A stretch of 32,000 bases of DNA from Candidatus Saccharimonadota bacterium (GTDB lineage Bacteria; Bacteroidota; Bacteroidia; Cytophagales; Amoebophilaceae): NCBI RefSeq assembly GCF_003351905.1, contig NZ_CP022339.1, positions 480,001 to 512,000 on the forward strand. The letters are read 5' to 3'. Under the pieces are notes generated by a model. The model saw nothing but the letters and a program-made list of their open reading frames with translations, was not told the DNA's origin and ran no database searches. The position numbers and the translations under genes were made by a program. Of the stretch, positions 81 through 18,719 are shown piece after piece. Each line of letters opens with the position of its first letter. Positions within the stretch are counted from its first letter, which is position 1.

Positions 81-273
81 GTGAATAGATAGCTATTTGT
101 TACTGTTTCGATACACCTGGTTCTAATGATTCCGTTCTCTTTCCAAGCCTATTGCTCGGCTATATGGAGTGAGGTACAATTTCATTGTTAACCAGTTACT
201 CTCTTCTTAGCTAAATTCCATTTGTAGCTTGCTTTATCTATTTCCAATAGGTATCTCGTCCACTGTGTTGCTT

Positions 274-3200
274 CTATTTAGGTGGAGACAAGATTTGCTG
301 ACAAAGCGCTTCCATTTCCGGTATCCAGTTCACCATATTGTTTTGTTTAGCCCAAGGGATATAAAATGTTACCGTTTCCTGCGCAACTTTTAGTTGAGCT
401 GTGTATTTACGTGCAGATAAAGTTCTTAGGTTATGCAACCTATCCGCTAATTTGATTTGCATCACACGGATATCCTTACATTGATGTAATGCCAGATGCC
501 TTTCCGATCGATCTAGTTTCCGTCGATAACCCTGTGTGGTGTAATGCGTCACCATACCCACGATATGAGCTATTTCTGATCCATATAATAGTTCTATTTG
601 ATCTAGGGTAACAGCTGTATCCTCTACGGTGTCGTGCAATAAGGCCGCTAAAAGCGTTGTGGGGTTTTGGGTCACCTCTAAGGTAAGTTTCGTGACGGCC
701 ATCGGATGCGTGTAATAAGGATCACCTGATTGACGAGTAGCTATCCCATGGGCTTGCTTGATAAAAGCAAGCGTTTGCTCTATTTTTTCTTGTGTTAATG
801 TGGTTTCTTTCACCAACAAATGGATTAGTTCCTTTTCTTGCGCTAGGCTTTCAACTGTTTCTGCTACTTCTTGGAATAAGTCTTCCATGTGGTGCCTTTT
901 TAAGCGCATGACTTTTTTACCACATAAAGGTAATACATAAAGGAAAGTCAAGTTTTCTGCTGTCTCTGTTATTGCTGTATATCCGCCATGGGCTTGTATT
1001 ATTTGCCTGCTTTCTACTTGATACAAACTATGTGTCTCTTTAGGTAAATAAGCTGCAATCACTTCATCGGTCATTACATAAGTAGGTAGCAGATTGGGCG
1101 TAGCTGTATCTGTAGAAATACAAAAAGCCAGTGCAGGGAGTAGGGGAGGGCTGAGTGGTTTGATGTTGTCTATAGCTAACTGGTTATCTTTATGGGCATG
1201 GTACGCCAATAAGGTATCTGCTATCGTTAGGGTAATGATATGGTTTGTCGCCTGTTTGCTTTGGCAAATTTCCCAAAAATTTATAGTGAAACATCGCTCA
1301 ATAAGCGCAGATGCGGCTAATATATGGGTCGCTTTAGTTTGTTTTCTTACTAGTAATTGAAGCGGTTTGGATAGGTCACGAACCGTTTCATACGCTTTAA
1401 AGATCGCTGCGTCGATATCTACTTGTTGTAAAGATTGGGGATCCAAAGTCAGCGTGCGTTCTTCTTTCGCTCTCTGTAATAAGATGCGGCTCAAGGCGTA
1501 GAGCTTCTGTTTTTGTGCATCTACACATTCAATATCAGGCTCTAGTGTATCAGCTATTTCTTGTAGTATTTTGCCATTATAGGTAGGATCTAAACGATTC
1601 CAGTTGGCTTGGTTATGCATGGATGTTAAGATAATACTCCTTTCGTAGTTTCTGGTTAGTTCAATAATTTGACATTTTAGTTGGATTTTGCGTCTTGCAT
1701 AGTGATAGGTTAGACAACTGATCAGGGAAACGCATGTGATGGTTACGGCGCTTACCCATTCTAGTGTAGTAACTGCTCTATCTAACCAGATGACCTGAAG
1801 CGGTAAACCAGCTATCATCCACCTATTGATAGCCAGTACTATCGCCAACATCATAAGCACTATAGGTAAGGGCAGTAATAGGCTACTTAAAGCAATATTG
1901 GCGATGATGAGTGCACAGGATATAGGGGCAAAATGACTGAGTGTAGCAAATGTAAAAGCTGAAACAAATAAAACTATATAAAGTAAGATAGGCCATAGTC
2001 CATCTAAAAAAGCATGGCTCCCTTTGTGATAGTTATGCCAAGCAGGATAGAAAGTAATTAATGTGCCTATAGCCATAATGGCTATATACCAATAGATATA
2101 CAGGTACAGATAGGTTTTTTGTATATACAAAAGGGATATAGAACTATAGATAATCAGGTAAATACCAAATGCAATAAAAGTAGAAGTATGCTTAGGGAAG
2201 ATGCTAGACCAATAATATTTTGTAAAAATAGATTGGATATATTTTATTTTTCTTAACCACCAACGCTTAATTTCTTGATTTTGTAGTTGTACGGGACTAT
2301 CATCTAAAATATTTACCCAACCTGTGTGTGCCCTTTTAGGTAGGAGGTAGTGTAAGATGAACAATATAAAAGTATTTGTTATCACAGATTTAAATATGTC
2401 ATGTTGCTCTATAACTTCTCCTTTTATAAAGATGGTATAGGCGGTTAGTGTGGTATTAAGCCCCATAGTGCATAAGACCGTAGCCGCACGAGGTCTAAAC
2501 CCAAAGCAAGCTATAATAAATGGAACGGTAATAGCAGAAGTATAAAATAATGCTGCTTTGTTTAGAAGTTGGATAATGCTTGTCGTATAAAGCGCAGTGA
2601 TCAGACTCAATAGGCCTATGGTTGCAGCGGTAATACGTGCTGTTTTAAGAGATGCTTTACGAAGTGCGCTAAATTTTTTAAATAAGAAAGGAAATAGGTC
2701 ATTGGTACATAAAACAGATGCAATATGTAAGTCAGAGTCAGCAGTGGACATTAATAAAGCAATAATGGATGATACCAGAAACCCTTTGATACCCAGAAAG
2801 TAATCGAGGTCTATAATATAGTCTATGACCTGTTGCCCTGGAGGTAGGATGTGCCCACCTATATGTAGCATAATGGCAACCATACAGGCTAGTATAGAAA
2901 ATAGGATACGTATGGCCGCAGTATTGCAAAAGACCTTGGTGGCATGTTGCACGGAGGTAGACATATACATACGTTGAATAAGTGATGGATTAATGGGAAA
3001 TAACATTAAAGTTGCATAACTGCTTAGGGTCTGGCCAATATTATGCCATGTAAAGACCTTTATGGGATTAAACTTTGGTATTTGTATTAATGCTTTCCAC
3101 GCATCCCATGGATGTGAGGTGTGGTATAGAAGGACAAGAATAATAACTGGCAGACAAATGAAAAACAAAAAAAACTGGTATACATCTGTAAATGTTACCG

Positions 3201-3723
3201 ACTTAGCGCCTCCAAATGAGGCATAAACAATCACAATACAAGATAAAATGATTCCCCATAGCATAGACCCATTTTTTATGGTAGGGAAGACAATAGGTGC
3301 TATACTTAAACCTACTTTAAACTGAATGGCCACGATCGCAATGGCCATAAGTACGCCAAAAAGTGCTGTAATGATGCGAATAGCTTGGCCATACAACATA
3401 CCCATTGATTCAGCTATAGAAAGATGGCCTATAAAGGATTTCATTCTGACAATCATCAGGCGAGCAGTTATATAAAAACCTATAGGAAAAACTAAATCCC
3501 TCATTAATGTGTACAAGCCCTTATGATAGTGGGCATTTAGCCTAGTAGTTAAAAACCCACCTCCATAAACAGTAGCTATTAAAGAAGCCGTTAGCACAAA
3601 CGTAGACATCTGTCTATTCCCTACCGCGTAGTCTTTAAAGGTCGTAACCCCTTTGCTACCATATAGCCCAACAGCCAGTATGGTCGTCAAGCATACCGTT
3701 ATAATGATCCAATCAACATACAT
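274..3723 (-). CDS. Multidomain membrane protein: SSF/SLC5 sodium:solute symporter, ~6-TM block, degenerate histidine-kinase-like core, RelA/SpoT-type HD hydrolase domain (catalytic motifs intact)
   Basis: 1149-aa ORF. The N-terminal ~470 aa carry SSF hallmarks (GGAKSVTFTDVYQ, QRMYMSTSVQHATK, LLMSTADSDLH). Residues ~500-690 form a second hydrophobic block. Residues ~690-935 resemble a DHp+HATPase_c core (TSMHN with His codon at 1615-1617; IIQAHGGYTAITE..FLYVLP), but I cannot recognise N/G1/G2 boxes. Residues ~985-1149 match the RelA/SpoT HD hydrolase pattern: SGDPYYTHP, LLHDTVEDT (nt 616-642, HD codons 631-636) and IKLADRLHNLRT. Confidence 0.8.
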   Translation of the reverse strand: MYVDWIIITVCLTTILAVGLYGSKGVTTFKDYAVGNRQMSTFVLTASLIATVYGGGFLTTRLNAHYHKGLYTLMRDLVFPIGFYITARLMIVRMKSFIGHLSIAESMGMLYGQAIRIITALFGVLMAIAIVAIQFKVGLSIAPIVFPTIKNGSMLWGIILSCIVIVYASFGGAKSVTFTDVYQFFLFFICLPVIILVLLYHTSHPWDAWKALIQIPKFNPIKVFTWHNIGQTLSSYATLMLFPINPSLIQRMYMSTSVQHATKVFCNTAAIRILFSILACMVAIMLHIGGHILPPGQQVIDYIIDLDYFLGIKGFLVSSIIALLMSTADSDLHIASVLCTNDLFPFLFKKFSALRKASLKTARITAATIGLLSLITALYTTSIIQLLNKAALFYTSAITVPFIIACFGFRPRAATVLCTMGLNTTLTAYTIFIKGEVIEQHDIFKSVITNTFILFILHYLLPKRAHTGWVNILDDSPVQLQNQEIKRWWLRKIKYIQSIFTKYYWSSIFPKHTSTFIAFGIYLIIYSSISLLYIQKTYLYLYIYWYIAIMAIGTLITFYPAWHNYHKGSHAFLDGLWPILLYIVLFVSAFTFATLSHFAPISCALIIANIALSSLLLPLPIVLMMLAIVLAINRWMIAGLPLQVIWLDRAVTTLEWVSAVTITCVSLISCLTYHYARRKIQLKCQIIELTRNYERSIILTSMHNQANWNRLDPTYNGKILQEIADTLEPDIECVDAQKQKLYALSRILLQRAKEERTLTLDPQSLQQVDIDAAIFKAYETVRDLSKPLQLLVRKQTKATHILAASALIERCFTINFWEICQSKQATNHIITLTIADTLLAYHAHKDNQLAIDNIKPLSPPLLPALAFCISTDTATPNLLPTYVMTDEVIAAYLPKETHSLYQVESRQIIQAHGGYTAITETAENLTFLYVLPLCGKKVMRLKRHHMEDLFQEVAETVESLAQEKELIHLLVKETTLTQEKIEQTLAFIKQAHGIATRQSGDPYYTHPMAVTKLTLEVTQNPTTLLAALLHDTVEDTAVTLDQIELLYGSEIAHIVGMVTHYTTQGYRRKLDRSERHLALHQCKDIRVMQIKLADRLHNLRTLSARKYTAQLKVAQETVTFYIPWAKQNNMVNWIPEMEALCQQILSPPK

Positions 3724-3935
3724 GGTTTCTACCTAATATTATGTTTGCGCAATAAATTTTATTAGCCTAATTACCTTTTGACTTTGAATAATATAAGTAT
3801 TATAACTTTTTTCTGTAAAATATAAAGTATATTGTAGCTACACATTTAGTAGCGTTTTATTGTAAGCATTACAAGAAATAATGTACAGAACTCAAGGGGC
3901 CATGAATATTTTTTGCCTTTTTAACGTTTGATTTT

Positions 3936-6900
3936 ATGGTATGCTTTCATATGTCTCTTGTAATCATAGGGGCTTTTTTGTTGTTGACTTTGGCAGTAGG
4001 TATCTACTTTAGTAGAAAAAAAACCTCTTTTAGAGAACATGCTGTGGGGAATAAGCAATTCGCTACGGCTACTTTAGTGGCTACGGTGTTGGCTACTGCT
4101 TATAGTGGAGGGGGGTTACTACGTACGGTAGAGTGTGTCTATAATCTGGGTCTGTGGTGGATAGCCATTACCCTTATAACATGCTTAGATGCCTACCTTA
4201 TTAGTAAACTAGCGTTACGTATGGGGCCATTTATGAATCACCTTTCTATGGCAGAAACGATAGGGTCCATTTATGGTAAATATCCAAGGATTATGGTTGC
4301 GTTGGTTAGTGTTTGTGGTGCTATAATTGCAATTACTATGCAAATCACTGCAATGTCCAAGGCTATTACCATGTGTATAGATACCGTTAACCCTAACATA
4401 GCTGCTATGATTTCTACCTTAGTGCTTATTTTTTACTCCACTTTTGGGGGTGTTCGTGCGGTGACCTATACAGATGTATTGCAGTTTATAACCTTTTCCA
4501 TTATTATTCCTTTACTAGCTTGGTTTATGTTTATTAAAACAGGCAAGTCAACTGTAGAAATTGTTTCGTTTCTAGGGGGGTATACTACTAAATTTCAATT
4601 TAGTAGCTTGTTTGGTTGTGGTAAGAAGCTCATAAGCATGGTGTTATTGATTCTCTCTTTTTTGATAGGTCGTATGTACCCATCTATCATACAACGTGTG
4701 TACATGGCTTCTGGTCCAATCCAGGCGCAAAAAGTGTTTGCGCATGTCACGATCTGTAGCGTTGCTATATGGAGTTTTATAATCTTGGTGGGTATATTCG
4801 TTTTTGTAGGCGCACCGGGCTTATCAGGTCCAGAAATTTGGACATATATAGTAAACAATGTGCCGCTTGTCTTTAAAGCTTTGCTTGCGGTTAGTTTGTT
4901 GGCTATGGCGATGTCTACAGCTGATTCTAACTTAAACGCCTCTGCGGTTATGTCTATTCATGATCTCCTAGGTCATATACCGGTTTCTAAAAATATAGCT
5001 CAGGTTAACCAACTGAGGTTAGCTAAATGGGCTACGTTAGTCATAGGCTTATTGGCGATGATACTAGCTTTTTATTGTAATGATTTACTTAAACTGATGT
5101 ATTGGGCCCTTAATTGCTATGTGCCCATAGTGATCGCTCCTTTTGTATTGGCCGTTTTTGGCTTTCGAGGCAGTTCCCGTACCGCTTTAATTGGTATGGC
5201 TGCAGGTGTACTGACTATGCTATCTTGGAACGAGTGGGTAGAACCTATCACATCCATGGATGGCTCCTTTATTGCTATGTTGGTCAATGCCCTGTTCATG
5301 ATGGTTGTCCACTATCTATTCAAACAGCCGGAAGGTTCCGGTTGGGTGCCGCCCCAGCGGGATGATATGGTGCATCAAATGAAGCAAGAAACGGCCCGTA
5401 AGCAAGCAGAGCGCAAAGAAACCATTCAAAATGCTTGGACAAATAAAAAAGATACTTTGGCTAAGCTGCAGCCCAGCCGTGTTACGCTAACCAGTCTAGG
5501 CCTCTATGTAGTGATCATTAATGTGCTGACCTACTTTATAGGCGCTATTACCGATCATAGTGGTTGGCTAATTGCACAACTCTTGGTAGGTGTTTGTTTT
5601 TTAGGGTATAGCACCTTTACAGAAAAGATATCCATTCCGCGTTGGGTAATGGGTTTATTTTGTGTGCTTGGTTTGTCTTTTTGCCTGCCTATCAATGTAC
5701 TTTGGCACTGGTGGCATGGTACCAATCTGCTCTTAACCCTAGGTATATCTTTGGCCCATTTGTCGGTCACCTTGTTGGTGCTTCCGCTTTATCTAAGTGT
5801 AAGTTTTTTAGTAGCTACCCTATGCATAGTGGCCTATCTTAGTCCTACCTACTGTACCAAGACACTGGTACTATCGCCATCATCTATTGTGTTGCTGTTG
5901 TTGCTCTGTTTGGGCGTGGGCTTGCTTATTTTTAGCATTTTTGTTTACCTAAAGGCCAAGAATAATCGTTACTTTGACCAAGTCATTTACCTAAAGGGTA
6001 GAGAAAGGTTTAGCACATTGCATAATTTCAAGGCAGCGCTGTATGACGCAGCTATGGCTCCTGGCTTGCGTGTACCGCAAGGACAGGGCTCTATTTTAGC
6101 GCAAGTAGTAGGTAAAGTGGAGGAATCGATCTCTTTTTTAGATAGTTATATGCCCCTTTATAAGCAAGATTTTCAAAGTATTATCAATAAGCTCTATGAT
6201 TGGGTAGCCTATTTTAATAAAAGAGAAAAGGCCAAAAACCATGCATTGCTACAGCCTATTAAAATTACTTTAGATAAGTTGATTCGTCAGGTAGAGGTTA
6301 CTTTGTCCCAAGAGGTCTCCCACCCGCCTAGGCTATTTGTAGCGCCCTCTAGTGAGACGCCATGCACCCATATTGTATGTGATATCCATCAAGTTGTTTA
6401 CTTATTGGTGCAAAGCATTTTACGGGTTAGTGGTCAGTTAGATGGTTCCAGTCTACCAGTTGTACGCATACACTTCCATCCCACTTCTTTACAATTCAAA
6501 CAGGCGGAGCCTATTGATGAGCGTGCACCTTCGGTGCTGCTTTTTCAGGCGATTGGGTTAGTCATAAGTAATGATCAGGCCACTCCAGCTTCATTGCTCA
6601 AGGTTAAGCCTTTATACGATGATAGGCTGGGTGTGATCGGCCCTGAGGGGAAGCAGGTAGTACCACCATCTATAGATCTTCGGCAAGACACGATAGTCAG
6701 TATGGTAGATGCCCATTATGGCTATTTGGAATACCCTGCTGATGGTAGTCAAGCAGCTATGCTGCTGGTGTTGCCTATTGATGTGGCCCATATTCGTGAT
6801 AAAATGACTACTAAGCTTCCTTTAGACTGCTTAACCTCAGACGCTCCTGTTACGCCTAAGGAGCAAGCCGATTCGATGATGGCCTTAATGCAGTTTCATG

Positions 6901-7523
6901 ATTATATCTGTCAATCTGCTCATTCAAATGATCCTGTAGATATAGGTACAATTTCAGGTTTGCTTTTATTGTTGCGGCAACATTTTGGCTTTAAGCGCCA
7001 TGCTTCGGGCCAATTGTTTTACGTGCGGGCGGTAGGTATTGCCACATTAGTGGTAGATTGGGTTTTTCATTCACCTAAGGTGATTTATGCCGCTTTGCTT
7101 TATGAATTGGTTCGGCATACTTGTTTGCCACTTTCTTATATCAAGCAACATTATAATTTAGGGGTCTATGCCTTTGTATTGAATGTAGTAGGCATAGATA
7201 AACGCCAAAGCTTGGATCATCCTTCCTTGCTGTATGTACAAAATCGGTTGAAAGCAGCGATTAAGGAAGACCATGTACAGCTTTCTGTTCTTTTTATTAA
7301 ACTAGCTGAACGGCTCTATGACTTGCGTCATGCATCAGGCTATGTGCATCTAGCAGAGGTGCAGCATATGGCGCAAGAAACCTTGTCCATAGATGTCCAA
7401 ATAGCCCATACATACTTAGGCTCAGAGGTAGGCACCACGTTGGAACAAGCCGCTAAACAGGCATTAGCGGTTTGTCAAAGTAAGCGGAAACAATCCTATA
7501 CCAAAAAGGATAAAGATAGATAG
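3936..7523 (+). CDS. Paralog of the 274-3723 protein: SSF symporter, ~6-TM block, degenerate kinase-like core, HD-like domain with all catalytic residues replaced
   Basis: 1195-aa ORF (alternative ATG at 3951). SSF motifs: GGVRAVTYTDVLQ, QRVYMASGPIQAQK, AMAMSTADSNLN. A second TM block follows. The kinase-like region contains STLHN (His codon 6021-6023), IVCDIHQVVYLLVQSILRV and VSMVDAHYGYLEY..LLVLP. The C-terminus aligns with the paralog's HD domain, but LLHDTVEDT becomes LLYELVRHT (YE codons 7101-7106), THP becomes VRA, and ADRLHN becomes AERLYD. Confidence 0.8.
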   Translation: MVCFHMSLVIIGAFLLLTLAVGIYFSRKKTSFREHAVGNKQFATATLVATVLATAYSGGGLLRTVECVYNLGLWWIAITLITCLDAYLISKLALRMGPFMNHLSMAETIGSIYGKYPRIMVALVSVCGAIIAITMQITAMSKAITMCIDTVNPNIAAMISTLVLIFYSTFGGVRAVTYTDVLQFITFSIIIPLLAWFMFIKTGKSTVEIVSFLGGYTTKFQFSSLFGCGKKLISMVLLILSFLIGRMYPSIIQRVYMASGPIQAQKVFAHVTICSVAIWSFIILVGIFVFVGAPGLSGPEIWTYIVNNVPLVFKALLAVSLLAMAMSTADSNLNASAVMSIHDLLGHIPVSKNIAQVNQLRLAKWATLVIGLLAMILAFYCNDLLKLMYWALNCYVPIVIAPFVLAVFGFRGSSRTALIGMAAGVLTMLSWNEWVEPITSMDGSFIAMLVNALFMMVVHYLFKQPEGSGWVPPQRDDMVHQMKQETARKQAERKETIQNAWTNKKDTLAKLQPSRVTLTSLGLYVVIINVLTYFIGAITDHSGWLIAQLLVGVCFLGYSTFTEKISIPRWVMGLFCVLGLSFCLPINVLWHWWHGTNLLLTLGISLAHLSVTLLVLPLYLSVSFLVATLCIVAYLSPTYCTKTLVLSPSSIVLLLLLCLGVGLLIFSIFVYLKAKNNRYFDQVIYLKGRERFSTLHNFKAALYDAAMAPGLRVPQGQGSILAQVVGKVEESISFLDSYMPLYKQDFQSIINKLYDWVAYFNKREKAKNHALLQPIKITLDKLIRQVEVTLSQEVSHPPRLFVAPSSETPCTHIVCDIHQVVYLLVQSILRVSGQLDGSSLPVVRIHFHPTSLQFKQAEPIDERAPSVLLFQAIGLVISNDQATPASLLKVKPLYDDRLGVIGPEGKQVVPPSIDLRQDTIVSMVDAHYGYLEYPADGSQAAMLLVLPIDVAHIRDKMTTKLPLDCLTSDAPVTPKEQADSMMALMQFHDYICQSAHSNDPVDIGTISGLLLLLRQHFGFKRHASGQLFYVRAVGIATLVVDWVFHSPKVIYAALLYELVRHTCLPLSYIKQHYNLGVYAFVLNVVGIDKRQSLDHPSLLYVQNRLKAAIKEDHVQLSVLFIKLAERLYDLRHASGYVHLAEVQHMAQETLSIDVQIAHTYLGSEVGTTLEQAAKQALAVCQSKRKQSYTKKDKDR

Positions 7524-7608
7524 TGTCTATGCAGCGGAGTGGTTTTTAAGTGATAATACGTTGCAACTGCTGGAAGAGATTTAGTTTTTGTTGCCTCCAA
7601 GTTAGGTA

Positions 7609-7734
7609 TCAAGAGAGGACCTCTTCTAGGAATTTGTTACCTCTTTCCGATTGCGTAAAATGTGAGTTTTGACGATATACCACGTAATGTCTGATTTGTC
7701 TCTCAGCTAAGTTATTGGTCAATGAAATCTGTCT
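7609..7734 (-). pseudogene. Remnant of a transposase C-terminus (IS66-family-like motif)
   Basis: Minus-strand translation gives RQISLTNNLAERQIRHYVVYRQNSHFTQSERGNKFLEEVLS*. This matches the IS66-type C-terminal pattern TNN.AER.IR....R.N..F..S..G......SLI. It is bounded upstream by an in-frame TAG, and no catalytic part of a transposase is present nearby. Confidence 0.5.
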
Positions 7735-7955
7735 CTAATTAATTTTAATTTATTTTATGGCTTTAAAACTATACCATACGGAAAATAAAATAAAAGTATG
7801 TCCGATTTTTTAGGCCATTATGTTGCGAATCACACAACTAAATATTCCATTCACTTTACAGATACCTTTTTCTTTTCCAAGCTATTTTTTTAACTTGCGT
7901 GCGGCAGATTCAGGTATGCGTTGCTAGCCTATGTTTTTACTTTATTATTTTGACC

Positions 7956-9167
7956 ATGCCCCATCCATTACCATCTTCTGGCACGCACACATGGGCAAGT
8001 AGCCATTTACAAGTAGCTACTGAAGTGGTACATGCTGGTGTATCTCCAGAATCCCATACAGGTGCTATCCTTACGCCTATTTTTCAATCATCCGTATTTG
8101 TACAGGAGTCCATTGAAACCTATTTAGCCAAGGGCCATTCTTATTCTGGGTCAAGAAACCCTACTGTTTCAGTGCTTGAAGAAAAGATTGCTACGCTGGA
8201 AAAAGCACAAGTTGCCTATTGCTTTGGTTCAGGCATGGCAGCCATTGTTACTACCATGGCCACTTTTTTACGCCATGGGGACCATTGTATACTCTCAAAC
8301 GGTTGTTATGCCACTACACAAGAAGTGGCACGTGACCTTTTTGGCCAACTTGGCGTAACTTTTTCTTTTGTAGACTTTTCCAGTCTAGTAGAAATAGAGG
8401 CAGCCATACAACCCAATACGAAAGTACTTTTTTCAGAATATCCGACCAACCCAACACTTACTTTAACCGATTTAGTTGCGGTTAGTGCATTGGCCCATCA
8501 AGTAGGTGCCAAACATGTGTGCGATAGTACCCTCGCCTCACCTATGGTGATTTGTCCGTTGAGCTTTGGTGCAGATATAGTGATTCAATCTACTACTAAA
8601 TACTACGATGGGCATAATATGACCATCGGTGGTGCCGTAGCATGTGCATCTGAAGAAAATGGGCCTCAAATTTTTGCTTATAGAAACAGACATGGGAGTA
8701 TCATGAGCCCTATGGTTGCCTTTTTGACTTTGCAATCCACTAAAACCATGCACTTACGCATACGAGAACAGTCTAGCAATGCAACACAGATTGCTGCATT
8801 TTTAGCAGATCATCCTAAGGTAGATAAAGTAGGGTATCCAGGATTGTTGGATTTCCCACAAAAAGCATTGGCAGATAGGCAACATAGTAATGGCCTGCAT
8901 GGTGGTATGTTATACTTTATACTCAAAGGAGGCGCCGATGCGAGTAGTAAATTTATGCAAGCGCTGTGTCGTCCATGGAGTTTTGGCGCCAATTTAGGTG
9001 GTGTAGAGAGTTTAATTTCCTATCCTCCTGTGATGTCTAATGGGACAATGGATGCTACACAGCTTCAAGCCATTGGCATAAGCGAAGGGTTTGTACGTGT
9101 ATCTTGTGGTATTGAAGATGCACAAGACCTTATCGATGCCCTGGAAGCTACTTTGCGTACATGCTAA
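7956..9167 (+). CDS. Cys/Met-metabolism PLP-dependent enzyme (cystathionine beta/gamma-lyase or gamma-synthase family)
   Basis: Family pattern VHAG...HTGAILTPIFQSSVF, GSGMAA, and the PLP-lysine motif QSTTKYYDGH. The ORF track starts at a GTG (7899). I prefer the ATG at 7956 (MPHPLP...) because the extension is a hydrophobic, non-homologous 19 aa. Confidence 0.75.
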   Translation: MPHPLPSSGTHTWASSHLQVATEVVHAGVSPESHTGAILTPIFQSSVFVQESIETYLAKGHSYSGSRNPTVSVLEEKIATLEKAQVAYCFGSGMAAIVTTMATFLRHGDHCILSNGCYATTQEVARDLFGQLGVTFSFVDFSSLVEIEAAIQPNTKVLFSEYPTNPTLTLTDLVAVSALAHQVGAKHVCDSTLASPMVICPLSFGADIVIQSTTKYYDGHNMTIGGAVACASEENGPQIFAYRNRHGSIMSPMVAFLTLQSTKTMHLRIREQSSNATQIAAFLADHPKVDKVGYPGLLDFPQKALADRQHSNGLHGGMLYFILKGGADASSKFMQALCRPWSFGANLGGVESLISYPPVMSNGTMDATQLQAIGISEGFVRVSCGIEDAQDLIDALEATLRTC

Positions 9168-9200
9168 TGGGCGTTTCTCTGTTTTAATGTATCTTTTCAC

Positions 9201-9281
9201 ATTACTGGTTAATGGATGCATTTTATTCCACTTTTTTCTTGATAAAAAAGTGGACAAAAAACCACTGCGCTGAATACATAC
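9201..9281 (+). repeat. Copy A of the intergenic A/T-hairpin repeat (short form)
   Basis: attactggttaatggatgcattttattCCACTTTTTTcttgatAAAAAAGTGGacaaaaaaccactgcgctgaatacatac. There is a perfect 10-bp stem (9228-9237 / 9244-9253). Both flanks recur at 15758-15816 and 15977-16002. It lies between convergent genes. Confidence 0.7.
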
Positions 9282-9348
9282 GTTTTAATGTAGTAAACTA
9301 AACGCCCCACCAGCTGAACCGATGAGTAAGCGTTGGATGGTTGCATCC

Positions 9349-10899
9349 TTAGGGATGTGTTGTTGCTATATCCGAAATGTATTGTACGTTACCTAAACGT
9401 ATATCAAGTTGGTTGGCCAGCTTTAAAATAAGGGGTATTACATTATTCTTACACGCATGTTCTATACTGCTTTCCGTGGTATCCAAATGGAAGGTAAACA
9501 TAATGACCAATCCGTTCTGGTTCATTTTATCTAGGTAGATGTTTGTTCTTTCTGGTTGTACCAATGGTTGTGATTCGGCAATGGTACGTAATCCCTTTAT
9601 AAACCTTGGTAACACTTCTAAAGAGATCGTATAATTTAGTGGTACTTCTAAAGAGACCATGCGCGAAGTTCTTTTCCCAAAGTTATCAATATAGGCATCC
9701 GCTAATTTTGCATTGGGGATGTACACTAAAGAACCTTCTTTTGTACGTAATAAGGTAGAACGTAAACCCACTTCTTCTACTTTGCCGCGGATGCCTCCAG
9801 AAACAATCTCATCCCCTACACTAAAAGGCCGATCCATCGTAATCATCAATGATCCAAATAGATTCTTAATGGTATCTTGACAAGCCAAACCCAGACCCAG
9901 TGTACTAAAAGAAAGTGCCTTCACTAAAGAGCCTGTTGCAAATCCAAGGTTGTCAATCGTTTGTACCAAACCCACAATCCCTACGATAATTTTAGCCGTT
10001 ATGCTAAAAAGAGGCAATATATGGATCATAAATTTATTGTGTTTCTTAGCAATTTTGATTCTATATTGCATTAAATTAACACATTCATACGCCAAACACA
10101 TCCATAAAAAGGAAGTGGTGGCCTCTATGACCCGATTGATAAAAGAGGTTAAGGATTCAGACTGGAACATCGTTAAGCCACTTTTTAAGAAGTAGATGCT
10201 AATCACCAGCATGAGTAACCGCTCTATAGCAAATGATTTTTTACTACCTATAAACTTATATACCATAAGTTTTAAAAAGTAGGGCATAATTTTATAGGTC
10301 AGCCAAATAATAATGGCCAAACCGATCAACATGATATATTGCCAAATGGTAAGGTTTAATATCTGTTTTTTACAAAATGCTTCGGGTAAAAAGTGATACA
10401 AAATCGTGTGTAAGCGATCCGCTACTTCATATTCCCTTATAAAATCTAGTGTTTCTTTACTGTAACGCCATTGTTCACCCTCTTTGATTAAGTAAACTTT
10501 TGGTAGCTTTTTAGATAAAATAAATCTATTTTCATTTATCGTTGGATCCATATAGTTCGGATCTTTCGGTATGGTTTCAATATTGATACCCTTAAGCGTT
10601 AGTAACCTTTTTAACTTAATCGCCATTTCTTTGCTTTGTTGGGTTTCGCCATGTGGAAATACAATCCCTACATGCGCAGCAGCTTTATTGCCCGGATTTA
10701 AAAGCATAAAATGGGTATATACGGTATCATATGGGGAGCTTAAATTTACTTTAGGATCATTTACGCGCTTATTATTGGCTTGTAAGGTAACCGGTGCGAG
10801 CATGTAGCTAAATGCCAAGCAAACAAGGTATGGTACCTGCTTGATCCGTACAAAATAGGGGGTCATTTTGTTTATACAAAATCGATAGAGGCTATTCAT
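9349..10899 (-). CDS. Mechanosensitive ion channel (MscS family) with an N-terminal signal/periplasmic extension
   Basis: 516 aa with TM helices, followed by the MscS core pattern NLFGSLMITMDRPFSVGDEIVSGGIRGKVEEVGLRSTLLRTKEGSLVYIPNAKL. Confidence 0.8.
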   Translation of the reverse strand: MNSLYRFCINKMTPYFVRIKQVPYLVCLAFSYMLAPVTLQANNKRVNDPKVNLSSPYDTVYTHFMLLNPGNKAAAHVGIVFPHGETQQSKEMAIKLKRLLTLKGINIETIPKDPNYMDPTINENRFILSKKLPKVYLIKEGEQWRYSKETLDFIREYEVADRLHTILYHFLPEAFCKKQILNLTIWQYIMLIGLAIIIWLTYKIMPYFLKLMVYKFIGSKKSFAIERLLMLVISIYFLKSGLTMFQSESLTSFINRVIEATTSFLWMCLAYECVNLMQYRIKIAKKHNKFMIHILPLFSITAKIIVGIVGLVQTIDNLGFATGSLVKALSFSTLGLGLACQDTIKNLFGSLMITMDRPFSVGDEIVSGGIRGKVEEVGLRSTLLRTKEGSLVYIPNAKLADAYIDNFGKRTSRMVSLEVPLNYTISLEVLPRFIKGLRTIAESQPLVQPERTNIYLDKMNQNGLVIMFTFHLDTTESSIEHACKNNVIPLILKLANQLDIRLGNVQYISDIATTHP

Positions 10900-13976: not shown

Positions 13977-14147
13977 AATATCGGCACCAAGGAGTCGGAT
14001 GTACTTTTTTGTTCACCTCTGTGCTGCATGACAGGCTATGGTTCTGTCGTGCTATCTGTCTACTTTTTTGTAACAAGTCCGCGCTATGGGTGGCTCATGT
14101 AAAACTATTTTCAGCATGGTGTTCTTTTGTTATTAAATACAGTTGCA

Positions 14148-14819
14148 ATGCGTTATTTATTTCAGGCTATTTGTTTCTATTTTCAAGGTCTTTTCAAGAA
14201 AATTTATCTATACCTTACCCTTGTTATCCTTGGTACTTTGGGCATAATACCGCTCCAGGCAAAATCAAAAAGTAAAGGCAACTTACTTAGTATAGCGCAT
14301 CACCAAGAGACGGTTCCTAGGCAAACAAAGCGCAAGCCAAAGTACATGGTTAAGCCTGGTAAAAGGAAAAGCAGTCAACAGGATGTTTTTGTAAAGGAGC
14401 AAATGAATGAATTGTTTCGGTCTACTATCCAACTCTTCGTATCAACTGGCTTAATTTTTGGCTTGCATCAGTTATGCAGCAAGCCTTTTGACTTATCTAC
14501 TTTAGTGGCGCCGCTCATAGGCAATCTTGCTGCCGATCCACTTGAAGCTATAGGACGTTCTTCTGCCATGTTGTTTTTTCCATTTTTATCCAAACCTAGA
14601 CTCAATCAAGCAATAGACTTAAAAAGGCAGTATGCAGCAAGGAAGCACACGTTTTCGGCAACTATGCAGAGTTTTATAGAACAGACCTTAAATCGGCATA
14701 TCTGGGCTATACAACGATTTGACTATTGTAACGATAAATATGTAGAAGTAATCCAAGAGGTATTGCAATTTCCTATAGGACCTAAGCAAATTGTGCCTAA
14801 TACAGTGGTTATAAACTAA
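14148..14819 (+). CDS. Fragment 1 of the disrupted AAA+ gene: N-terminal signal-anchor/TM region, no recognisable domain
   Basis: The ORF has a hydrophobic N-terminus (MRYLFQAICFYFQGLFKKIYLYLTLVILGTLGIIPLQA), a basic stretch and one more hydrophobic helix. The ATG at 14148 is preferred over the TTG at 14127. Confidence 0.5.
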   Translation: MRYLFQAICFYFQGLFKKIYLYLTLVILGTLGIIPLQAKSKSKGNLLSIAHHQETVPRQTKRKPKYMVKPGKRKSSQQDVFVKEQMNELFRSTIQLFVSTGLIFGLHQLCSKPFDLSTLVAPLIGNLAADPLEAIGRSSAMLFFPFLSKPRLNQAIDLKRQYAARKHTFSATMQSFIEQTLNRHIWAIQRFDYCNDKYVEVIQEVLQFPIGPKQIVPNTVVIN

Positions 14820-14822
14820 TTT

Positions 14823-15158
14823 ATGCGCAACTATCCAGAAGCGGTTCGTCTGGCTATTGGTGCATTTGTTGCCACTATAGTTGAGGATGCCAAAAGCAGT
14901 CTATTAACTAAAAAAGCAACCCCGATTATGTTTGTAGGGCCACCTGGAACTGGCAAAACCTATTTGGCCAAGCAATTGGCCAGCTTGTTGCAGCTACCTG
15001 TGCAATGTATGGATATATCTAGGTATAAGCGCGTACATGGCACTGGATTTGATTCCTCTAATCCTGAAAAAGGAGTCATAGCAGAAGCACTGATAGGCGC
15101 GTCTAGTCAAGCACAGAACTGGTCTAATAAAATACTCGTATTAGATGAAATAGAATAA
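14823..15158 (+). CDS. Fragment 2: AAA+ Walker A / Walker B segment
   Basis: Walker A is FVGPPGTGKTYLAKQLA and Walker B is ILVLDEIE, immediately followed by TAA. Spacing and sequence resemble the Lon AAA+ module. Confidence 0.65.
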   Translation: MRNYPEAVRLAIGAFVATIVEDAKSSLLTKKATPIMFVGPPGTGKTYLAKQLASLLQLPVQCMDISRYKRVHGTGFDSSNPEKGVIAEALIGASSQAQNWSNKILVLDEIE

Positions 15159-15168
15159 AGCCCTAGCC

Positions 15169-15741
15169 ATGGATAACAATGGAAAATTTGTAGCCAGCAA
15201 TGGATCAGACATATATAATCTGTTGCATACCCTTTTAGAAGCACAAGAAGTAGCAGTGCCGTTGTCTCGTTATGACCATGCATGCCCTGATATCTCTCAG
15301 CTAAAAATTGTTTTGATTGCCAATAAAACCTTTACAGAAACCTTGACAGCAGATAAGGCAGCAGCCTTAGAAAGCCGTATAAAAGTCATTCATTTTGATG
15401 AAGGTTTCACCCCTGCAAGGAAGTGCGCGATTGCAACGACTTATGTGGATGAGCTACTGACTAAAAAAGGTATAGATCGATCGCAATTCGATCAAAATGT
15501 AATAGATGCCATTGTAGCAGAAGATAGCCGTATAGGTTTGAAAGGAGTACGTGTTTTGCTTAATGTGATTGATCAATACATAGACCTATTAAAATATCAA
15601 AAGTTGATTCATGAAATTTCAGGTATACAAACGACTACTTTTGATGTAAAACAAGCCTATGCACCTTATCATCTTCAAGCAGGCCCATGCGCTGACTTAA
15701 ATGATACAAAACTGGCTCCTAAAAAAAGCGTGAGCAAATAG
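15169..15741 (+). CDS. Fragment 3: remainder of the AAA+ module (sensor/lid region)
   Basis: LLHTLLEAQE...IVLIANKTFTETL...LESRIKVIHFDEGFT...GLKGVRVLLNVI parallels Lon ALLEVLDPEQN...FIATAN...LLDRMEVI..GYT..AGVRNLER. This reading frame is open from 15154. Confidence 0.6.
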   Translation: MDNNGKFVASNGSDIYNLLHTLLEAQEVAVPLSRYDHACPDISQLKIVLIANKTFTETLTADKAAALESRIKVIHFDEGFTPARKCAIATTYVDELLTKKGIDRSQFDQNVIDAIVAEDSRIGLKGVRVLLNVIDQYIDLLKYQKLIHEISGIQTTTFDVKQAYAPYHLQAGPCADLNDTKLAPKKSVSK

Positions 15742-17463: not shown

Positions 17464-17507
17464 GTCTATTTTAATCTTGTAAACCGTATATGACACATTA
17501 TAGTAGC

Positions 17508-18119
17508 ATGAAACGATATGTAAAATACCTTTTAGTATTGTTTCTGGTAATCTTTGCAGATCAAGGATGCAAACTTTGGGTCCATAACCATATGGAATTA
17601 GGGCCAGATTACCATATAAAAATATTAGGAAACCTATTTAAGTTGACCTATGTGCTAAACTATGGCATGGCTTTTGGGTTACAATTTGGTTTTAAGTATG
17701 GAAAGTTGCTGATTACCTGTGTGCGTCTTTTTGCTTCGCTCTATATTATGCTTTATATCGTTCGGTCATTGGCTCAGTCAACCCCTACTGTATGGATTTG
17801 GGGCTGGGTCCTGCTTTTAGGAGGTGCTATTGGCAATACCATAGATAGTATTTTTTATGGTGTTTATTTAAATAATGCACCTGATATAGCGCCTATGCAA
17901 TGGTTCCATGGGCAAGTCATTGATATGCTCCATCTTGATTTTTGGTCTGGTGTACTGCCCCACTGGGTACCTATTTGTGGAGGGCAAGAGATCGGTCTGT
18001 TGCCTATTTTCAATATAGCAGATCTGGCTATTTTTCTCGGACTATTGTTGATGTTTTGTTCTTTTCATGCATTGGTACCATCGAACAAAAAAAGTCAAGT
18101 AACGGATTATACCGTATAA
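17508..18119 (+). CDS. lspA: Lipoprotein signal peptidase (signal peptidase II), copy 1
   Basis: LspA pattern ADQ..K, LNYGMAFG, GGAIGNTIDS and PIFNIAD, so both catalytic Asp contexts are present. The track start is 17490. The ATG at 17508 aligns with the start of copy 2 and gives an exact 624-nt offset. Confidence 0.85.
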   Translation: MKRYVKYLLVLFLVIFADQGCKLWVHNHMELGPDYHIKILGNLFKLTYVLNYGMAFGLQFGFKYGKLLITCVRLFASLYIMLYIVRSLAQSTPTVWIWGWVLLLGGAIGNTIDSIFYGVYLNNAPDIAPMQWFHGQVIDMLHLDFWSGVLPHWVPICGGQEIGLLPIFNIADLAIFLGLLLMFCSFHALVPSNKKSQVTDYTV

Positions 18120-18131
18120 AAGTTTATATAT

Positions 18132-18719
18132 ATGCAACGGTTTATAAAATATTTTTCTATTGTATTGTTTATTGTTTTGGCAGATCAAGCCTCTAAGCTT
18201 TGGGTGTACAACCATATGGAAATGGGGACAGATGGGCACATTAATCTTTTGGGAAATATTTTTAAGCTTACCTATACCTTAAATCCTGGAATGGCATTTA
18301 GCATCCATCTAGGTTTTAAATATGGTAAGTTATTGATTACCACCTTCCGTGTTTTGGCTTCTTTATATATTTTTTGGCACATCATTCAATCCATCAGACG
18401 CCATACACCTGTTGCTTGGATCTGCGGATGGGCTTTGGTGTTAGGAGGTGCTATTGGCAATAGCATAGATAGTATTTTTTATGGTGTCTATCTGAATAAT
18501 GCACCTACTGATGCACCTATGAAATGGTTCTACGGACAGGTCATTGATATGCTACACATTGACCTTTGGTCTGGTGTGATGCCTAGTTGGCTACCTATTT
18601 GGGGCGGGTACTATATATATTGCCTACCTATTTTTAACATAGCTGATGTAGCTGTATCGGCTGGGTTAGCAGTTATTTTATGTCTGTTTCATGGAACTCC
18701 TCATCCCAAACCTTACTGA
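18132..18719 (+). CDS. lspA: Lipoprotein signal peptidase (signal peptidase II), copy 2, tandem paralog
   Basis: Contains ADQASK, LNPGMAFS, GGAIGNSIDS and PIFNIAD. It is collinear with copy 1 over the whole length and starts 12 nt after the copy 1 stop. Confidence 0.85.
   Translation: MQRFIKYFSIVLFIVLADQASKLWVYNHMEMGTDGHINLLGNIFKLTYTLNPGMAFSIHLGFKYGKLLITTFRVLASLYIFWHIIQSIRRHTPVAWICGWALVLGGAIGNSIDSIFYGVYLNNAPTDAPMKWFYGQVIDMLHIDLWSGVMPSWLPIWGGYYIYCLPIFNIADVAVSAGLAVILCLFHGTPHPKPY

What the first reader, a model, noticed from the sequence alone, without database searches (positions are those of the whole stretch)
6882..7446. Second paralog carries a dead HD domain, with every catalytic or metal-ligand position substituted
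Aligned with paralog 1 and the RelA/SpoT hydrolase consensus, SGDPYYTHP becomes SGQLFYVRA and LLHDTVEDT becomes LLYELVRHT (YE codons 7101-7106). IKLADRLHNLR becomes IKLAERLYDLR. The surrounding scaffold stays alignable (AALL, IKLA.RL..LR). The ORF is intact over 1195 codons, so this looks like a maintained pseudoenzyme rather than decay. Pairing an active and an inactive paralog suggests a regulatory heteromer or an allosteric nucleotide-binding receptor.
Basis: partly seen in the sequence, partly recalled or inferred. Interest (0 to 1): 0.65.

Follow-up and report, generated by a model that had tools for sequence, protein, structure and literature searches.

The report
Remodelled dead-hydrolase tail on symbiont transporters
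A transporter-like membrane protein of the insect symbiont Cardinium ends in a copy of an alarmone-degrading (RelA/SpoT-type) enzyme domain whose catalytic residues have all been swapped for a fixed new set; it belongs to a many-copy gene family in which this 'dead' domain is the most tightly conserved part, so the domain has been kept for a non-enzymatic or new job and is not decaying.

Summary
ORF 3936..7523(+) (1195 aa) ends in a RelA/SpoT-type HD domain. Compared with Rel of known structure, R44, H53, H77, D78, E81, D82, D144, H147 and N148 read H, R, Y, E, R, H, E, Y and D. It is not a lone second paralog. The window comes from Cardinium (endosymbiont of Sogatella furcifera), and this gene belongs to a multi-copy family restricted to Cardinium/Amoebophilaceae, with 5 copies in this genome and up to 15 or more elsewhere. 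About 84 long family members carry the same substituted residues, mostly invariant. A sister clade of about 80 proteins, including the neighbour 274..3723(-), keeps the canonical catalytic set. The HD region has the lowest dN/dS of the protein (median 0.12, against 0.27-0.42 for the other regions; lowest in 182 of 184 pairs). The region between the transporter and the HD domain is a degenerate histidine-kinase core (DHp+CA fold, ATP-binding motifs lost). The protein is therefore an SSS transporter followed by a pseudokinase and a pseudohydrolase. "Maintained pseudoenzyme" is strongly supported. The idea of an active/inactive heteromer pair gets no support from synteny or copy numbers. What the remodelled site does (ligand sensing, scaffold or new chemistry) remains inferred. 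I rate it a new variant of known kinds (rickSpo expansions, RelA pseudo-HD, SLC5-kinase fusions).

The parts
3936..7523 (+). Paralog 2, the gene in the finding: 1195-aa protein made of an SSS transporter, extra TM block, degenerate histidine-kinase core and remodelled HD domain ('dead-type')
   Evidence: Intact ORF. Pfam SSF plus HD_4. 100% match to a Cardinium endosymbiont of Sogatella furcifera protein on a 1,103,593-bp contig.
4044..5207 (+). Sodium:solute symporter (SSS/SLC5) domain, residues 37-424
   Evidence: Pfam PF00474 E 7e-14; NCBIfam sss and PutP/PanF-like hits below cut-off. It shares the invariant residues (e.g. Q253 R254, M326 S327 D330) with SSS-histidine kinases. dN/dS about 0.27.
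5481..6005 (+). Second hydrophobic (TM) block, residues about 516-690; the fastest-evolving part
   Evidence: Sequence is hydrophobic throughout. Median dN/dS 0.42. 37-67% identity between copies in this genome.
6084..6812 (+). Degenerate histidine-kinase core (DHp-like helices plus CA/HATPase-like alpha/beta domain), residues about 717-959; ATP-binding N, G1 and G2 boxes lost
   Evidence: AF2 model. Foldseek top hits are DHp-CA kinases: CckA 5idj, HK853, RetS. hhalign against SSS-HisKA-HATPase_c kinases gives prob 82%, E 1e-5, with N-box Asn->Q/R, DxGxG->NDQAT and a G2 box without Gly. No Pfam HATPase_c hit.
6882..7520 (+). Remodelled RelA/SpoT-type HD domain (residues 983-1195; Pfam HD_4 1015-1158)
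   Evidence: AF2 pLDDT mostly 84-97 here. Foldseek match to SpoT 7qpr, rmsd 3.2 A over 209 columns. Lowest dN/dS of the protein, median 0.117.
6999..7028 (+). Motif H1022-A-S-G-Q-L-F-Y-V-R1031 (Rel R44->H, H53->R)
   Evidence: H1022, G1025, L1027 and R1031 are 99-100% fixed in 84 dead-type proteins, against R, G, P and H in 80 active-type proteins.
7101..7118 (+). Motif Y1056-E-L-V-R1060-H1061 (Rel H77->Y, D78->E, E81->R, D82->H)
   Evidence: Y1056 100% and R1060 93% fixed. Position 1057 varies E/D/G and 1061 varies H/R/Y.
7308..7322 (+). Motif E1125-R-L-Y1128-D1129 (Rel D144->E, H147->Y, N148->D)
   Evidence: All three are 100% fixed in the dead-type clade, and D, H, N are 100% fixed in the active-type clade.
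274..3723 (-). Paralog 1: 1149-aa protein with the same architecture but a canonical ('active-type') HD domain (HD_4 at about 343-771)
   Evidence: Pfam HD_4 E 1.5e-20 plus HD PF01966. NCBIfam spoT_relA 8.6e-37 over the HD region. Rel/SpoT PDB hits at 1e-28 with all catalytic motifs. 94% identical ortholog in Cardinium sp. TP.
3724..3935 (.). 212-bp AT-rich divergent intergenic region between the two paralogs
   Evidence: Coordinates. Sigma-70-like matches are not above shuffled expectation. Homology with Cardinium sp. TP stops inside it, at window 3865.

Best explanation
Paralog 2 is one member of a multi-copy family specific to Cardinium/Amoebophilaceae. The proteins are sodium:solute-symporter (SLC5/SSS) membrane proteins with a cytoplasmic tail made of two former enzymes: a histidine-kinase core (DHp+CA) that has lost its ATP-binding motifs, and a RelA/SpoT (rickSpo-like) HD domain.

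Shown:
- The HD fold is retained.
- The residue positions aligned to the Mn2+-ligand and catalytic positions of Rel all carry different residues (the roles of those positions come from the Rel(Seq) literature, recalled from memory).
- Most of the replacements (H1022, R1031, Y1056, R1060, E1125, Y1128, D1129) are fixed across the whole clade.
- This domain is under the strongest purifying selection in the protein.
- Several old paralog lineages are kept side by side in each genome, while other copies are pseudogenised.

Inferred:
- The domain no longer hydrolyses (p)ppGpp by the canonical metal-dependent mechanism.
- It instead serves as a common, non-catalytic regulatory module shared by transporters whose membrane parts have diversified.
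- The most likely picture is this. The protein dimerises through the kinase-like helices. The remodelled pocket, where Arg/His side chains stand in for the metal and the acidic dyad, binds an anionic cytoplasmic ligand such as an alarmone, another nucleotide or a phospho-metabolite. Alternatively the pocket locks into a fixed conformation. Either way it would couple cytoplasmic state to transport activity, or report transporter occupancy.
For: Register and substitutions.

Fixation: 84 dead-type against 80 active-type proteins show a clean switch at R44/H53/H77/E81/D144/H147/N148, each 93-100% conserved within its clade. In a 34-sequence alignment reaching 31% identity, H1022, R1031, Y1056, E1125, Y1128 and D1129 are invariant.

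Selection: NG86 dN/dS on 30 intact copies, 184 pairs with dS 0.3-1.2. Medians are SSS 0.27, TM2 0.42, kinase-like 0.27 and HD 0.117; HD is lowest in 182 of 184 pairs. Within this genome the HD domains are 76-88% identical, against 55-63% for the SSS domains.

Fold: AF2 pLDDT 77 overall and about 90 in the HD domain. Foldseek finds DHp-CA kinases and Rel/SpoT HD domains. hhalign to SSS kinases gives E 1e-5, with the ATP boxes lost.

Clade restriction: a dead-HD profile against 1.84 billion representatives finds only 23 clusters at E<=1e-30, all of them, where the aligned region covers the motifs, with the remodelled motif. Canonical HD domains then follow at about 1e-14.

Old paralog lineages: each copy's nearest relative is usually in another genome.

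Precedent for SSS domains coupled to cytoplasmic signalling modules: relatives with HisKA+HATPase_c, and SLC5sbd+HK proteins proliferated in intracellular bacteria (PMC5615194).
Against: - No binding, transport or activity data exist.
- The AF2 coordinates could not be inspected, so the geometry of the remodelled pocket (salt-bridged shut or open to a ligand) is unknown.
- Two former ligand positions keep carboxylates (E1057 in most copies, E1125), and D1129, Y1056 and Y1128 are new potential ligands. A different metal site or a new chemistry is therefore not excluded.
- Strong conservation fits a protein-protein interface as well as a ligand pocket.
- dS is near 1 for many pairs and comparisons mix orthologs and paralogs with recombination, so the omega values are approximate. 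The ranking of the domains, however, is very consistent.
- It was not established whether Cardinium makes (p)ppGpp at all.
Confidence: 0.55

Rival explanations
1. Pure structural or scaffolding pseudo-domain. Arg1031 and the retained carboxylates replace the Mn2+ as an internal salt-bridge network. The domain is kept only because it stabilises the dimeric tail or docks a common partner protein, with no small-molecule ligand.
For: High conservation extends over the whole domain (70% mean column identity in A5), not only the pocket. His->Arg with Asp->Glu at former metal ligands is the kind of change expected if a side chain fills the metal site. Position 1057 tolerates Gly.
Against: Seven former active-site positions are fixed to specific new residues, including two Tyr and a new Asp, which is more than fold stabilisation would seem to need. 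There is no structural or interaction evidence either way.
Confidence: 0.2
2. Neo-enzyme. The remodelled site (Y1056, E1057, R1060, E1125, Y1128, D1129, R1031, H1022) is a new active site with different chemistry or a different metal, so the domain is not dead.
For: The replaced residues are invariant and chemically reactive (carboxylates, Tyr, Arg, His). The domain has the strongest purifying selection in the protein.
Against: By homology with Rel(Seq), all His ligands of the HD metal site and the Glu-Asp dyad are gone. Former positions D78 and D82 vary (E/D/G and H/R/Y), which is unusual for a catalytic centre. No known HD-superfamily enzyme with this motif was found in the PDB searches.
Confidence: 0.13
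3. One reading: the dead-type protein forms a regulatory heteromer with the adjacent active-type paralog, controlling its (p)ppGpp hydrolase as a pseudoenzyme partner.
For: The two genes are divergent neighbours 212 bp apart. Both have a DHp-like dimerisation module. An active-type gene also lies next to a dead-type gene in Cardinium sp. TP (L001) and in an Amoebophilaceae MAG (L058).
Against: Copy numbers are far from 1:1, with 5 dead-type against 1 active-type in this genome. The arrangement differs (divergent here, convergent in L001 and L058) and the partner copy is not orthologous (64% identity; homology with L001 ends at window 3865). The closest homolog, P0002, has no active-type neighbour, and neither do most of the 63 loci. 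The DHp regions are only about 22% identical between the types.
Confidence: 0.1
4. Simple decay: a pseudogenising duplicate whose HD domain has drifted.
For: Many fragmented family members exist in Cardinium genomes (about 20 of 63 loci) and in the literature (PMC12039267).
Against: The 1195-codon ORF is intact. The same substitutions are fixed in about 84 proteins. HD omega is 0.12, and 0.13 for this very copy against L029.
Confidence: 0.02

Closest known systems
Pseudo-hydrolase (inactive HD) domain of RelA in Beta/Gammaproteobacteria
   Same: A RelA/SpoT-family HD fold that has lost the catalytic His-Asp and Glu-Asp residues yet is conserved and used non-catalytically (established knowledge; divergence of the RelA HD is also noted in PMC3153485).
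   Different: RelA's pseudo-HD sits next to an active synthetase domain, with TGS/ACT domains, in a soluble ribosome-associated factor. Here there is no SYNTH, TGS or ACT domain. The domain is the C-terminal tail of an SSS membrane protein, and the substituted residues form their own invariant motif.
rickSpo small alarmone hydrolases (Atkinson et al. 2011, PMC3153485)
   Same: [quoted passage not shown] Brown et al. 2018 count 18 'spoT/sodium glucose cotransporter' homologs in Amoebophilus and 7/3/2 in Cardinium strains. This is very probably the same gene expansion, seen at the HD-domain level.
   Different: Those papers treat the proteins as hydrolases ([H]) or 'bifunctional spoT'. They do not describe the split into a canonical clade and a clade with a remodelled site, and Atkinson et al. 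do not mention the transporter fusion (no 'symporter' or 'transmembrane' in the text). I did not run the rickSpo HMM, so assignment to that subgroup is by description only.
SSS/SLC5-domain sensor histidine kinases (CbrA/CrbS type; 'SLC5sbd+HK' of Rickettsiales, PMC5615194)
   Same: An N-terminal SSS domain followed by extra TM helices and a DHp-CA module. The nearest non-HD relatives in the database carry HisKA+HATPase_c. hhalign and Foldseek link the middle region to these kinases. They too have proliferated and spread among obligate intracellular bacteria.
   Different: No Pfam HisKA or HATPase_c hit. The N, G1 and G2 ATP-binding boxes are lost, and no invariant His lies in the DHp-like helices. 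The output is an HD domain, not phosphotransfer to a response regulator.
SpoT/Rel/Mesh1 (p)ppGpp hydrolase domains of known structure
   Same: Same fold (SpoT 7qpr rmsd 3.2 A over 209 columns; Rel 6s2u, 8acu, 1vj7) and same scaffold motifs (SG, LL, KLA.RL).
   Different: All catalytic and metal positions differ.

Membership tests
RelA/SpoT homolog (RSH) hydrolase domain, HD_4 / small alarmone hydrolase | HD_4 sequence family membership and all-helical HD fold | tested here: met
   PF13328 at 35.5 bits against a cut-off of 27.2. PDB Rel hits at 1e-5 (single sequence) and 8e-9 (profile). Foldseek matches to SpoT/Rel.
RelA/SpoT homolog (RSH) hydrolase domain, HD_4 / small alarmone hydrolase | Mn2+ ligands H53, H77-D78, D144 (Rel(Seq) numbering) | tested here: not met
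   They read R1031, Y1056-E1057 and E1125.
RelA/SpoT homolog (RSH) hydrolase domain, HD_4 / small alarmone hydrolase | Catalytic E81-D82 dyad and substrate-contact residues R44 and N148 | tested here: not met
   They read R1060-H1061, H1022 and D1129.
RelA/SpoT homolog (RSH) hydrolase domain, HD_4 / small alarmone hydrolase | (p)ppGpp pyrophosphohydrolase activity | not testable with these tools
   Needs an enzyme assay.
RelA-type pseudo-HD of long RSHs | Inactive HD followed by SYNTH, TGS and ACT domains | tested here: not met
   Only SSF and HD_4 are found and the HD is C-terminal.
Sodium:solute symporter family (SSS/SLC5) | SSF profile match over the full transporter core | tested here: met
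   PF00474 at 51.9 bits against 22.8, residues 37-424 covering profile positions 3-406 of 406. The NCBIfam equivalogs (PutP, PanF) fall far below their cut-offs, so substrate is not assignable.
Sodium:solute symporter family (SSS/SLC5) | Na+-coupled solute transport | not testable with these tools
   Conserved core residues are shared with the SSS kinases, but function is untested.
SSS-domain sensor histidine kinases (CbrA/CrbS; SLC5sbd+HK) | DHp-CA fold after the SSS domain | tested here: met
   Foldseek hits to CckA, HK853 and RetS at E about 1e-5. hhalign prob 82%, E 1e-5.
SSS-domain sensor histidine kinases (CbrA/CrbS; SLC5sbd+HK) | ATP-binding N, G1 and G2 boxes of HATPase_c | tested here: not met
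   N-box Asn->Q/R, DxGxG->N-D-Q-A-T, and the G2 box lacks Gly. No PF02518 hit.
SSS-domain sensor histidine kinases (CbrA/CrbS; SLC5sbd+HK) | Conserved phospho-acceptor His in the DHp H-box | tested here: inconclusive
   No invariant His lies between residues 700 and 800 of alignment A1, and no PF00512 hit. However, the H-box region was not aligned by hhalign.
rickSpo SAH subgroup (Atkinson 2011) | Match to the rickSpo subgroup HMM or placement in that clade of the RSH tree | not tested
   Only the published description (expansion in Amoebophilus) links them. The subgroup HMM was not available.

The most novel reading that the evidence does not exclude
The remodelled HD domain is a new, metal-independent receptor for (p)ppGpp or a related nucleotide. 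In this reading, Arg/His residues have replaced the Mn2+ and the acidic dyad so that the ligand is bound but not cleaved. The domain would gate a whole battery of SSS importers in an obligate intracellular symbiont. That would be an alarmone-effector domain evolved from the alarmone hydrolase itself, giving direct nucleotide control of host-metabolite uptake.
Probability: 0.2. Interest if true: 0.8.

Novelty: new variant of a known kind. Interest (0 to 1): 0.55.

Why it matters
Cardinium genomes are about 1.1 Mb. Even so, they keep 5 to more than 15 copies of these 3.6-kb genes, so several percent of the genome is spent on the family. The literature lists these genes only as 'Na+/proline symporters' or 'spoT homologs'.

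This analysis splits the family into two clades. One has a canonical alarmone-hydrolase tail. The other has a tail whose active site was rewritten once and then frozen, and that tail is the most constrained part of the protein. This makes it a clear candidate for a pseudoenzyme-derived regulatory or sensor domain on transporters.

It also corrects the annotation: these proteins should not be counted as (p)ppGpp hydrolases when the stringent-response capacity of endosymbionts is reconstructed. It gives defined residues to mutate (R1031, Y1056, R1060, E1125, Y1128, D1129). And it offers a natural active/remodelled pair for asking how HD-domain enzymes become receptors or scaffolds.

Tried and rejected
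- **Decay.** Rejected by the intact ORF, the fixed substitutions and the low omega.
- **Alignment artefact.** Rejected, because pairwise, profile-to-PDB, MAFFT and hmmalign alignments all give the same register.
- **Conserved active/dead gene pair.** Looked for in 63 genome loci, in the closest relative's locus and around the closest homolog. Adjacency appears in only 2 other loci, with a different orientation and a non-orthologous partner.
- **A third copy at the window's left edge.** Checked whether 1-273 holds the end of another dead-type copy, as in L001. It does not.
- **Promoter/terminator scan of 3600-8000.** Nothing above the shuffled expectation, and the tool does not model Bacteroidota promoters.
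- **Biopython's cal_dn_ds.** Timed out, so I replaced it with my own NG86 code.
- **First structure job.** I rebuilt the alignment with accepted rows.
- **Literature searches.** I searched for a description of the remodelled HD clade using the Cardinium/Amoebophilus genome papers, the RSH classification and the Rickettsia metabolism paper. They mention only the gene-family expansion.
- **(p)ppGpp synthetase in Cardinium.** I did not determine whether one is encoded. No suitable search remained that would answer it.

Full report
**What is there**

The window (about 40% GC) carries two divergently transcribed large ORFs. Paralog 1 is 274..3723(-), 1149 aa. Paralog 2 is 3936..7523(+), 1195 aa. 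Both have an N-terminal sodium:solute symporter domain (Pfam SSF) and a C-terminal RelA/SpoT-type HD domain (Pfam HD_4, above the gathering score in both). Paralog 1 also hits the general HD model and NCBIfam spoT_relA. The two proteins share only about 22% identity over their C-terminal halves. A database search identifies the window as Cardinium endosymbiont of Sogatella furcifera, with a 100% match on a 1,103,593-bp contig. The rest of the window is ordinary chromosomal housekeeping: cystathionine-type PLP enzyme, MscS, UvrA, LspA, Sua5, E2 acyltransferase, MgtE, SecDF, Nth, LepA, L19 and tRNA-Thr.

**Checking the observation**

A pairwise phmmer search of the tail against all PDB sequences aligns it with Rel of B. 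subtilis (8acu, 6yxa) and S. equisimilis (1vj7) in this register: HASGQLFYVRA with RKSGEPYI(I/V)HP, LLYELVRHT with fLHDVVEDT, and IKLAERLYDLR with IKLADRLHNMR. A profile built from 20 family members gives the same register, at E 8e-9. So do MAFFT of 164 HD domains and hmmalign of 150 representatives.

In Rel(Seq) numbering, read from the 1vj7 alignment, the changes are R44->H1022, H53->R1031, H77->Y1056, D78->E1057, E81->R1060, D82->H1061, D144->E1125, H147->Y1128 and N148->D1129. From established work on Rel(Seq), which I cite from memory and did not re-derive here, H53/H77/D78/D144 hold the Mn2+ and E81/D82 are needed for catalysis. No alignment restores a His or Asp at these positions, so the finding's own refutation test fails. 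The YE codons are at 7101-7106, as stated. Paralog 1 has every canonical residue.

**It is a large family, not a second paralog**

Paralog 2 retrieves well over a hundred proteins of 1150-1200 aa, almost all from Cardinium, with more distant ones from Amoebophilaceae MAGs. Judged by shared contig length:

- This genome has five copies: P0001, P0009, P0013, P0029 and a 915-aa truncated P0055.
- The Philonthus and Nabis symbionts have 8 or more.
- C. hertigii DK880 has about 15.

A scan of species-representative genomes returned 63 loci. About 30 are intact and about 20 are fragmented, so the family evolves by birth and death.

Paralog 1 defines a sister family with the same architecture. It occurs in Cardinium, Amoebophilus (Aasi_1009) and free-living Cytophagales/Bacteroidota, and is itself expanded in DK880. 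Next in similarity come SSS proteins with HisKA+HATPase_c, and Rickettsiales (Tisiphia, Megaera) SSS proteins.

**The substitutions are a fixed new motif**

All long dead-type proteins carry H.SG.L(F/L)Y(V/I/L)R., LLY(E/D/G)L(V/I)R(H/R/Y)T and (I/V)KLAERLYDL.. All active-type proteins carry R.SG.P(Y/F).(T/L)HP, LLHD..EDT and KLADR.HN.R.

A column-by-column comparison of 84 dead-type and 80 active-type HD domains shows a clean switch, with each residue 93-100% conserved within its clade: R/H, P/L, H/R, V/I, H/Y, E/R, D/E, H/Y and N/D. The scaffold residues (S, G, LL, T, K, A, R) are shared. Only the former D78 (E/D/G) and D82 (H/R/Y) positions vary.

A profile of the dead-type HD searched against 1.84 billion cluster representatives finds just 23 clusters at E<=1e-30. 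All of those whose aligned region covers the motifs carry the remodelled motif (a few short fragments cover only part of the domain). After a gap, canonical HD domains follow at about 1e-14. The remodelling therefore happened essentially once, in the Cardinium/Amoebophilaceae lineage. A few free-living Bacteroidota proteins (P0118, P0199, P0274, P0375, P0257) show different, partial degenerations.

**Selection**

I made a codon alignment of the window's gene and 29 intact copies from the loci and computed Nei-Gojobori dN/dS for each region. Over 184 pairs with overall dS between 0.3 and 1.2, the results were:

| Region | Median omega |
|---|---|
| SSS | 0.27 |
| Second TM block | 0.42 |
| Kinase-like region | 0.27 |
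| HD domain | 0.117 (IQR 0.10-0.13) |

The HD domain had the lowest omega in 182 of 184 pairs. For the window's copy against its nearest relative (L029) the HD omega is 0.13. Among the five copies of this genome, the HD domains are 76-88% identical, against 55-63% for SSS and 37-67% for the second TM block.

Three caveats apply. dS is close to 1 for many pairs. The comparisons mix orthologs and paralogs. And 7 of 16 close pairs show at least 2.5-fold different dS between the N- and C-terminal halves, which indicates recombination between copies. The ranking of domains is nevertheless robust. Each copy's nearest relative is usually in a different genome, so several paralog lineages are old and have been retained in parallel.

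**The middle region is a dead histidine kinase**

An AF2 model of residues 690-1195, built from a 42-sequence alignment, has mean pLDDT 77, and mostly 84-97 in the HD part. Foldseek against the PDB matches its first half to DHp-CA histidine-kinase cores (CckA 5idj at 8.6e-6, HK853, ZraS and RetS). It matches its second half to Rel/SpoT hydrolase domains (SpoT 7qpr, rmsd 3.2 A over 209 columns).

Profile-profile comparison with SSS-HisKA-HATPase_c kinases aligns the CA domain (prob 82%, E 1e-5). The N-box Asn residues are replaced by Q/R, the G1 DxGxG by N-D-Q-A-T, and the G2 box has no glycine. Pfam sees no HATPase_c. The model's equivalent of the ATP-lid is a low-confidence loop. Paralog 1 shares this degenerate region. 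The architecture is therefore an SSS transporter, extra TM helices, a pseudokinase (probably a dimerisation module) and an HD domain that is catalytic in one clade and remodelled in the other.

**Testing the pairing idea**

In the closest genome available (Cardinium sp. TP), paralog 1's ortholog is 94% identical. Nucleotide homology (92.6%) spans window 251-3865 only. It stops inside the intergenic region, and paralog 2 has no positional ortholog there. Instead, a different dead-type copy (64% identity) lies convergent on the other side of paralog 1. An Amoebophilaceae MAG (L058) also has a convergent dead/active pair. The closest homolog of paralog 2 (P0002, 74%) sits between a short SSF gene, a carbonic anhydrase and a transposase, with no active-type gene nearby. 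Most loci have none within 5 kb. Together with the 5:1 copy ratio, this gives no support for a dedicated active/inactive heteromer, although it cannot be excluded.

**Mechanism**

Shown:
- Retention of the HD fold.
- Different residues at every position that aligns with a canonical catalytic or metal residue of Rel.
- Fixation of a new residue set.
- Strongest constraint on this domain.
- Diversification of the membrane parts.
- A kinase-like module without ATP-binding motifs.

Inferred:
- Canonical Mn2+-dependent (p)ppGpp hydrolysis is lost.
- The tail is a common regulatory module on a set of diversified importers or 'transceptors'.
- The chemistry of the changes (His->Arg, Glu->Arg and Asp->His/Arg in the pocket, with carboxylates lengthened to Glu) suggests two possibilities. 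A basic side chain may occupy the metal site, making the domain a scaffold. Or the pocket may have become a metal-free anion or nucleotide binding site, making it a receptor.

I consider 'maintained, canonically inactive domain' about 85-90% likely. The specific ligand-sensing/regulatory version is about 30-35% likely within that. A new catalytic activity is not excluded.

**Comparison with what is known**

Atkinson et al. 2011 (PMC3153485) placed an expansion of HD-only RSH proteins in Amoebophilus, 15 RSHs including one long Rel, in the 'rickSpo' hydrolase subgroup together with the Rickettsiales expansions. Brown et al. 2018 (PMC6232779) counted 18 'spoT/sodium glucose cotransporter' homologs in Amoebophilus and 7, 3 and 2 in three Cardinium strains. 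Penz et al. 2012 set aside multicopy 'Na+/proline symporters'. A 2025 mite-symbiont paper lists SSS/HD fragments as repeat elements. Driscoll et al. 2017 (PMC5615194) describe proliferated SLC5sbd and SLC5sbd+HK transporters spread by lateral transfer among Rickettsiales, Amoebophilus and Cardinium.

The gene-family expansion and the SSS-kinase relationship are therefore known. In the searchable literature I found no description of the split into a canonical clade and a remodelled-site clade, of the constraint on the remodelled domain, or of the pseudokinase core. A conserved pseudo-HD as such has a classic precedent in RelA. Hence my rating: a new variant of a known kind.

**Verdict**

The real object is a clade-wide, multi-copy family of SSS-pseudokinase-pseudohydrolase proteins. 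Interest 0.55.

Noticed in passing
window 6084-6812 (paralog 2) and the equivalent region of paralog 1 (about 850-1600, minus strand): The region between the membrane part and the HD domain is a degenerate histidine-kinase core (DHp+CA fold) that has lost the N, G1 and G2 ATP-binding boxes. Both paralog types are therefore pseudokinases as well.
   Followed up: yes
window 17490-18119 and 18132-18719 (+): Two tandem signal peptidase II (LspA) genes, 63% identical over 188 aa. A retained duplicate of a housekeeping gene is unusual in a 1.1-Mb symbiont genome.
   Followed up: partly
window 14127-15741 (+): Three short consecutive ORFs (230, 111 and 190 aa). The middle one is only the N-terminal part of an AAA ATPase domain. 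It looks like a fragmented AAA-ATPase gene of the kind reported as multi-copy in Cardinium (PMC12039267, PMC6232779).
   Followed up: no
loci L012/L030, L011/L019, L014/L015, L008/L040, L002/L040, L022/L040, L015/L041: Within single pairs of family members, synonymous divergence differs 2.5- to 4.5-fold between the SSS half and the C-terminal half (e.g. 1.03 against 0.23). This indicates recombination or gene conversion that shuffles transporter heads and tails between copies.
   Followed up: partly
L023 and L024 (Cardinium of Tipula unca, NZ_OZ026476.1 595293-608808 and 612355-625870): Two identical full-length dead-type copies (dN = dS = 0), a few kb apart in opposite orientation, so a very recent inverted duplication. 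The same genome holds at least six fragments of the family.
   Followed up: no
L053, L054, L056 (Megaera venefica and Rickettsiales MAGs); P0205, P0210, P0217, P0223 (Tisiphia): Rickettsiales encode SSS proteins of about 950-1050 aa whose transporter domain is 30-32% identical to the Cardinium ones. Some carry HATPase_c. This fits the lateral spread of SLC5sbd(+HK) genes among intracellular bacteria proposed in PMC5615194. Their C-termini lack the HD motifs.
   Followed up: partly
P0118, P0199, P0274, P0375, P0257, P0335 (metagenomic/free-living Bacteroidota, about 1150-1170 aa): Other members of the SSS-HD architecture show different, partial degenerations of the HD motifs (e.g. H/D.TGE..Y.RA, LMH.I.DKT, LA.RLH..R). 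These may be independent losses or intermediates.
   Followed up: no
L051 (uncultured Cytophagales MAG, CAJQOF010000089.1): Five SSS-domain genes in tandem within about 10 kb (tblastn hits at 760-2175, 4989-6362, 6433-7812, 7883-9247 and 9315-10682).
   Followed up: no
L064 11933-12961: A DDE transposase lies immediately downstream of the closest homolog (P0002) of paralog 2 in the Philonthus symbiont, with a short stand-alone SSF gene upstream. This fits mobile-element-associated turnover of the family.
   Followed up: no
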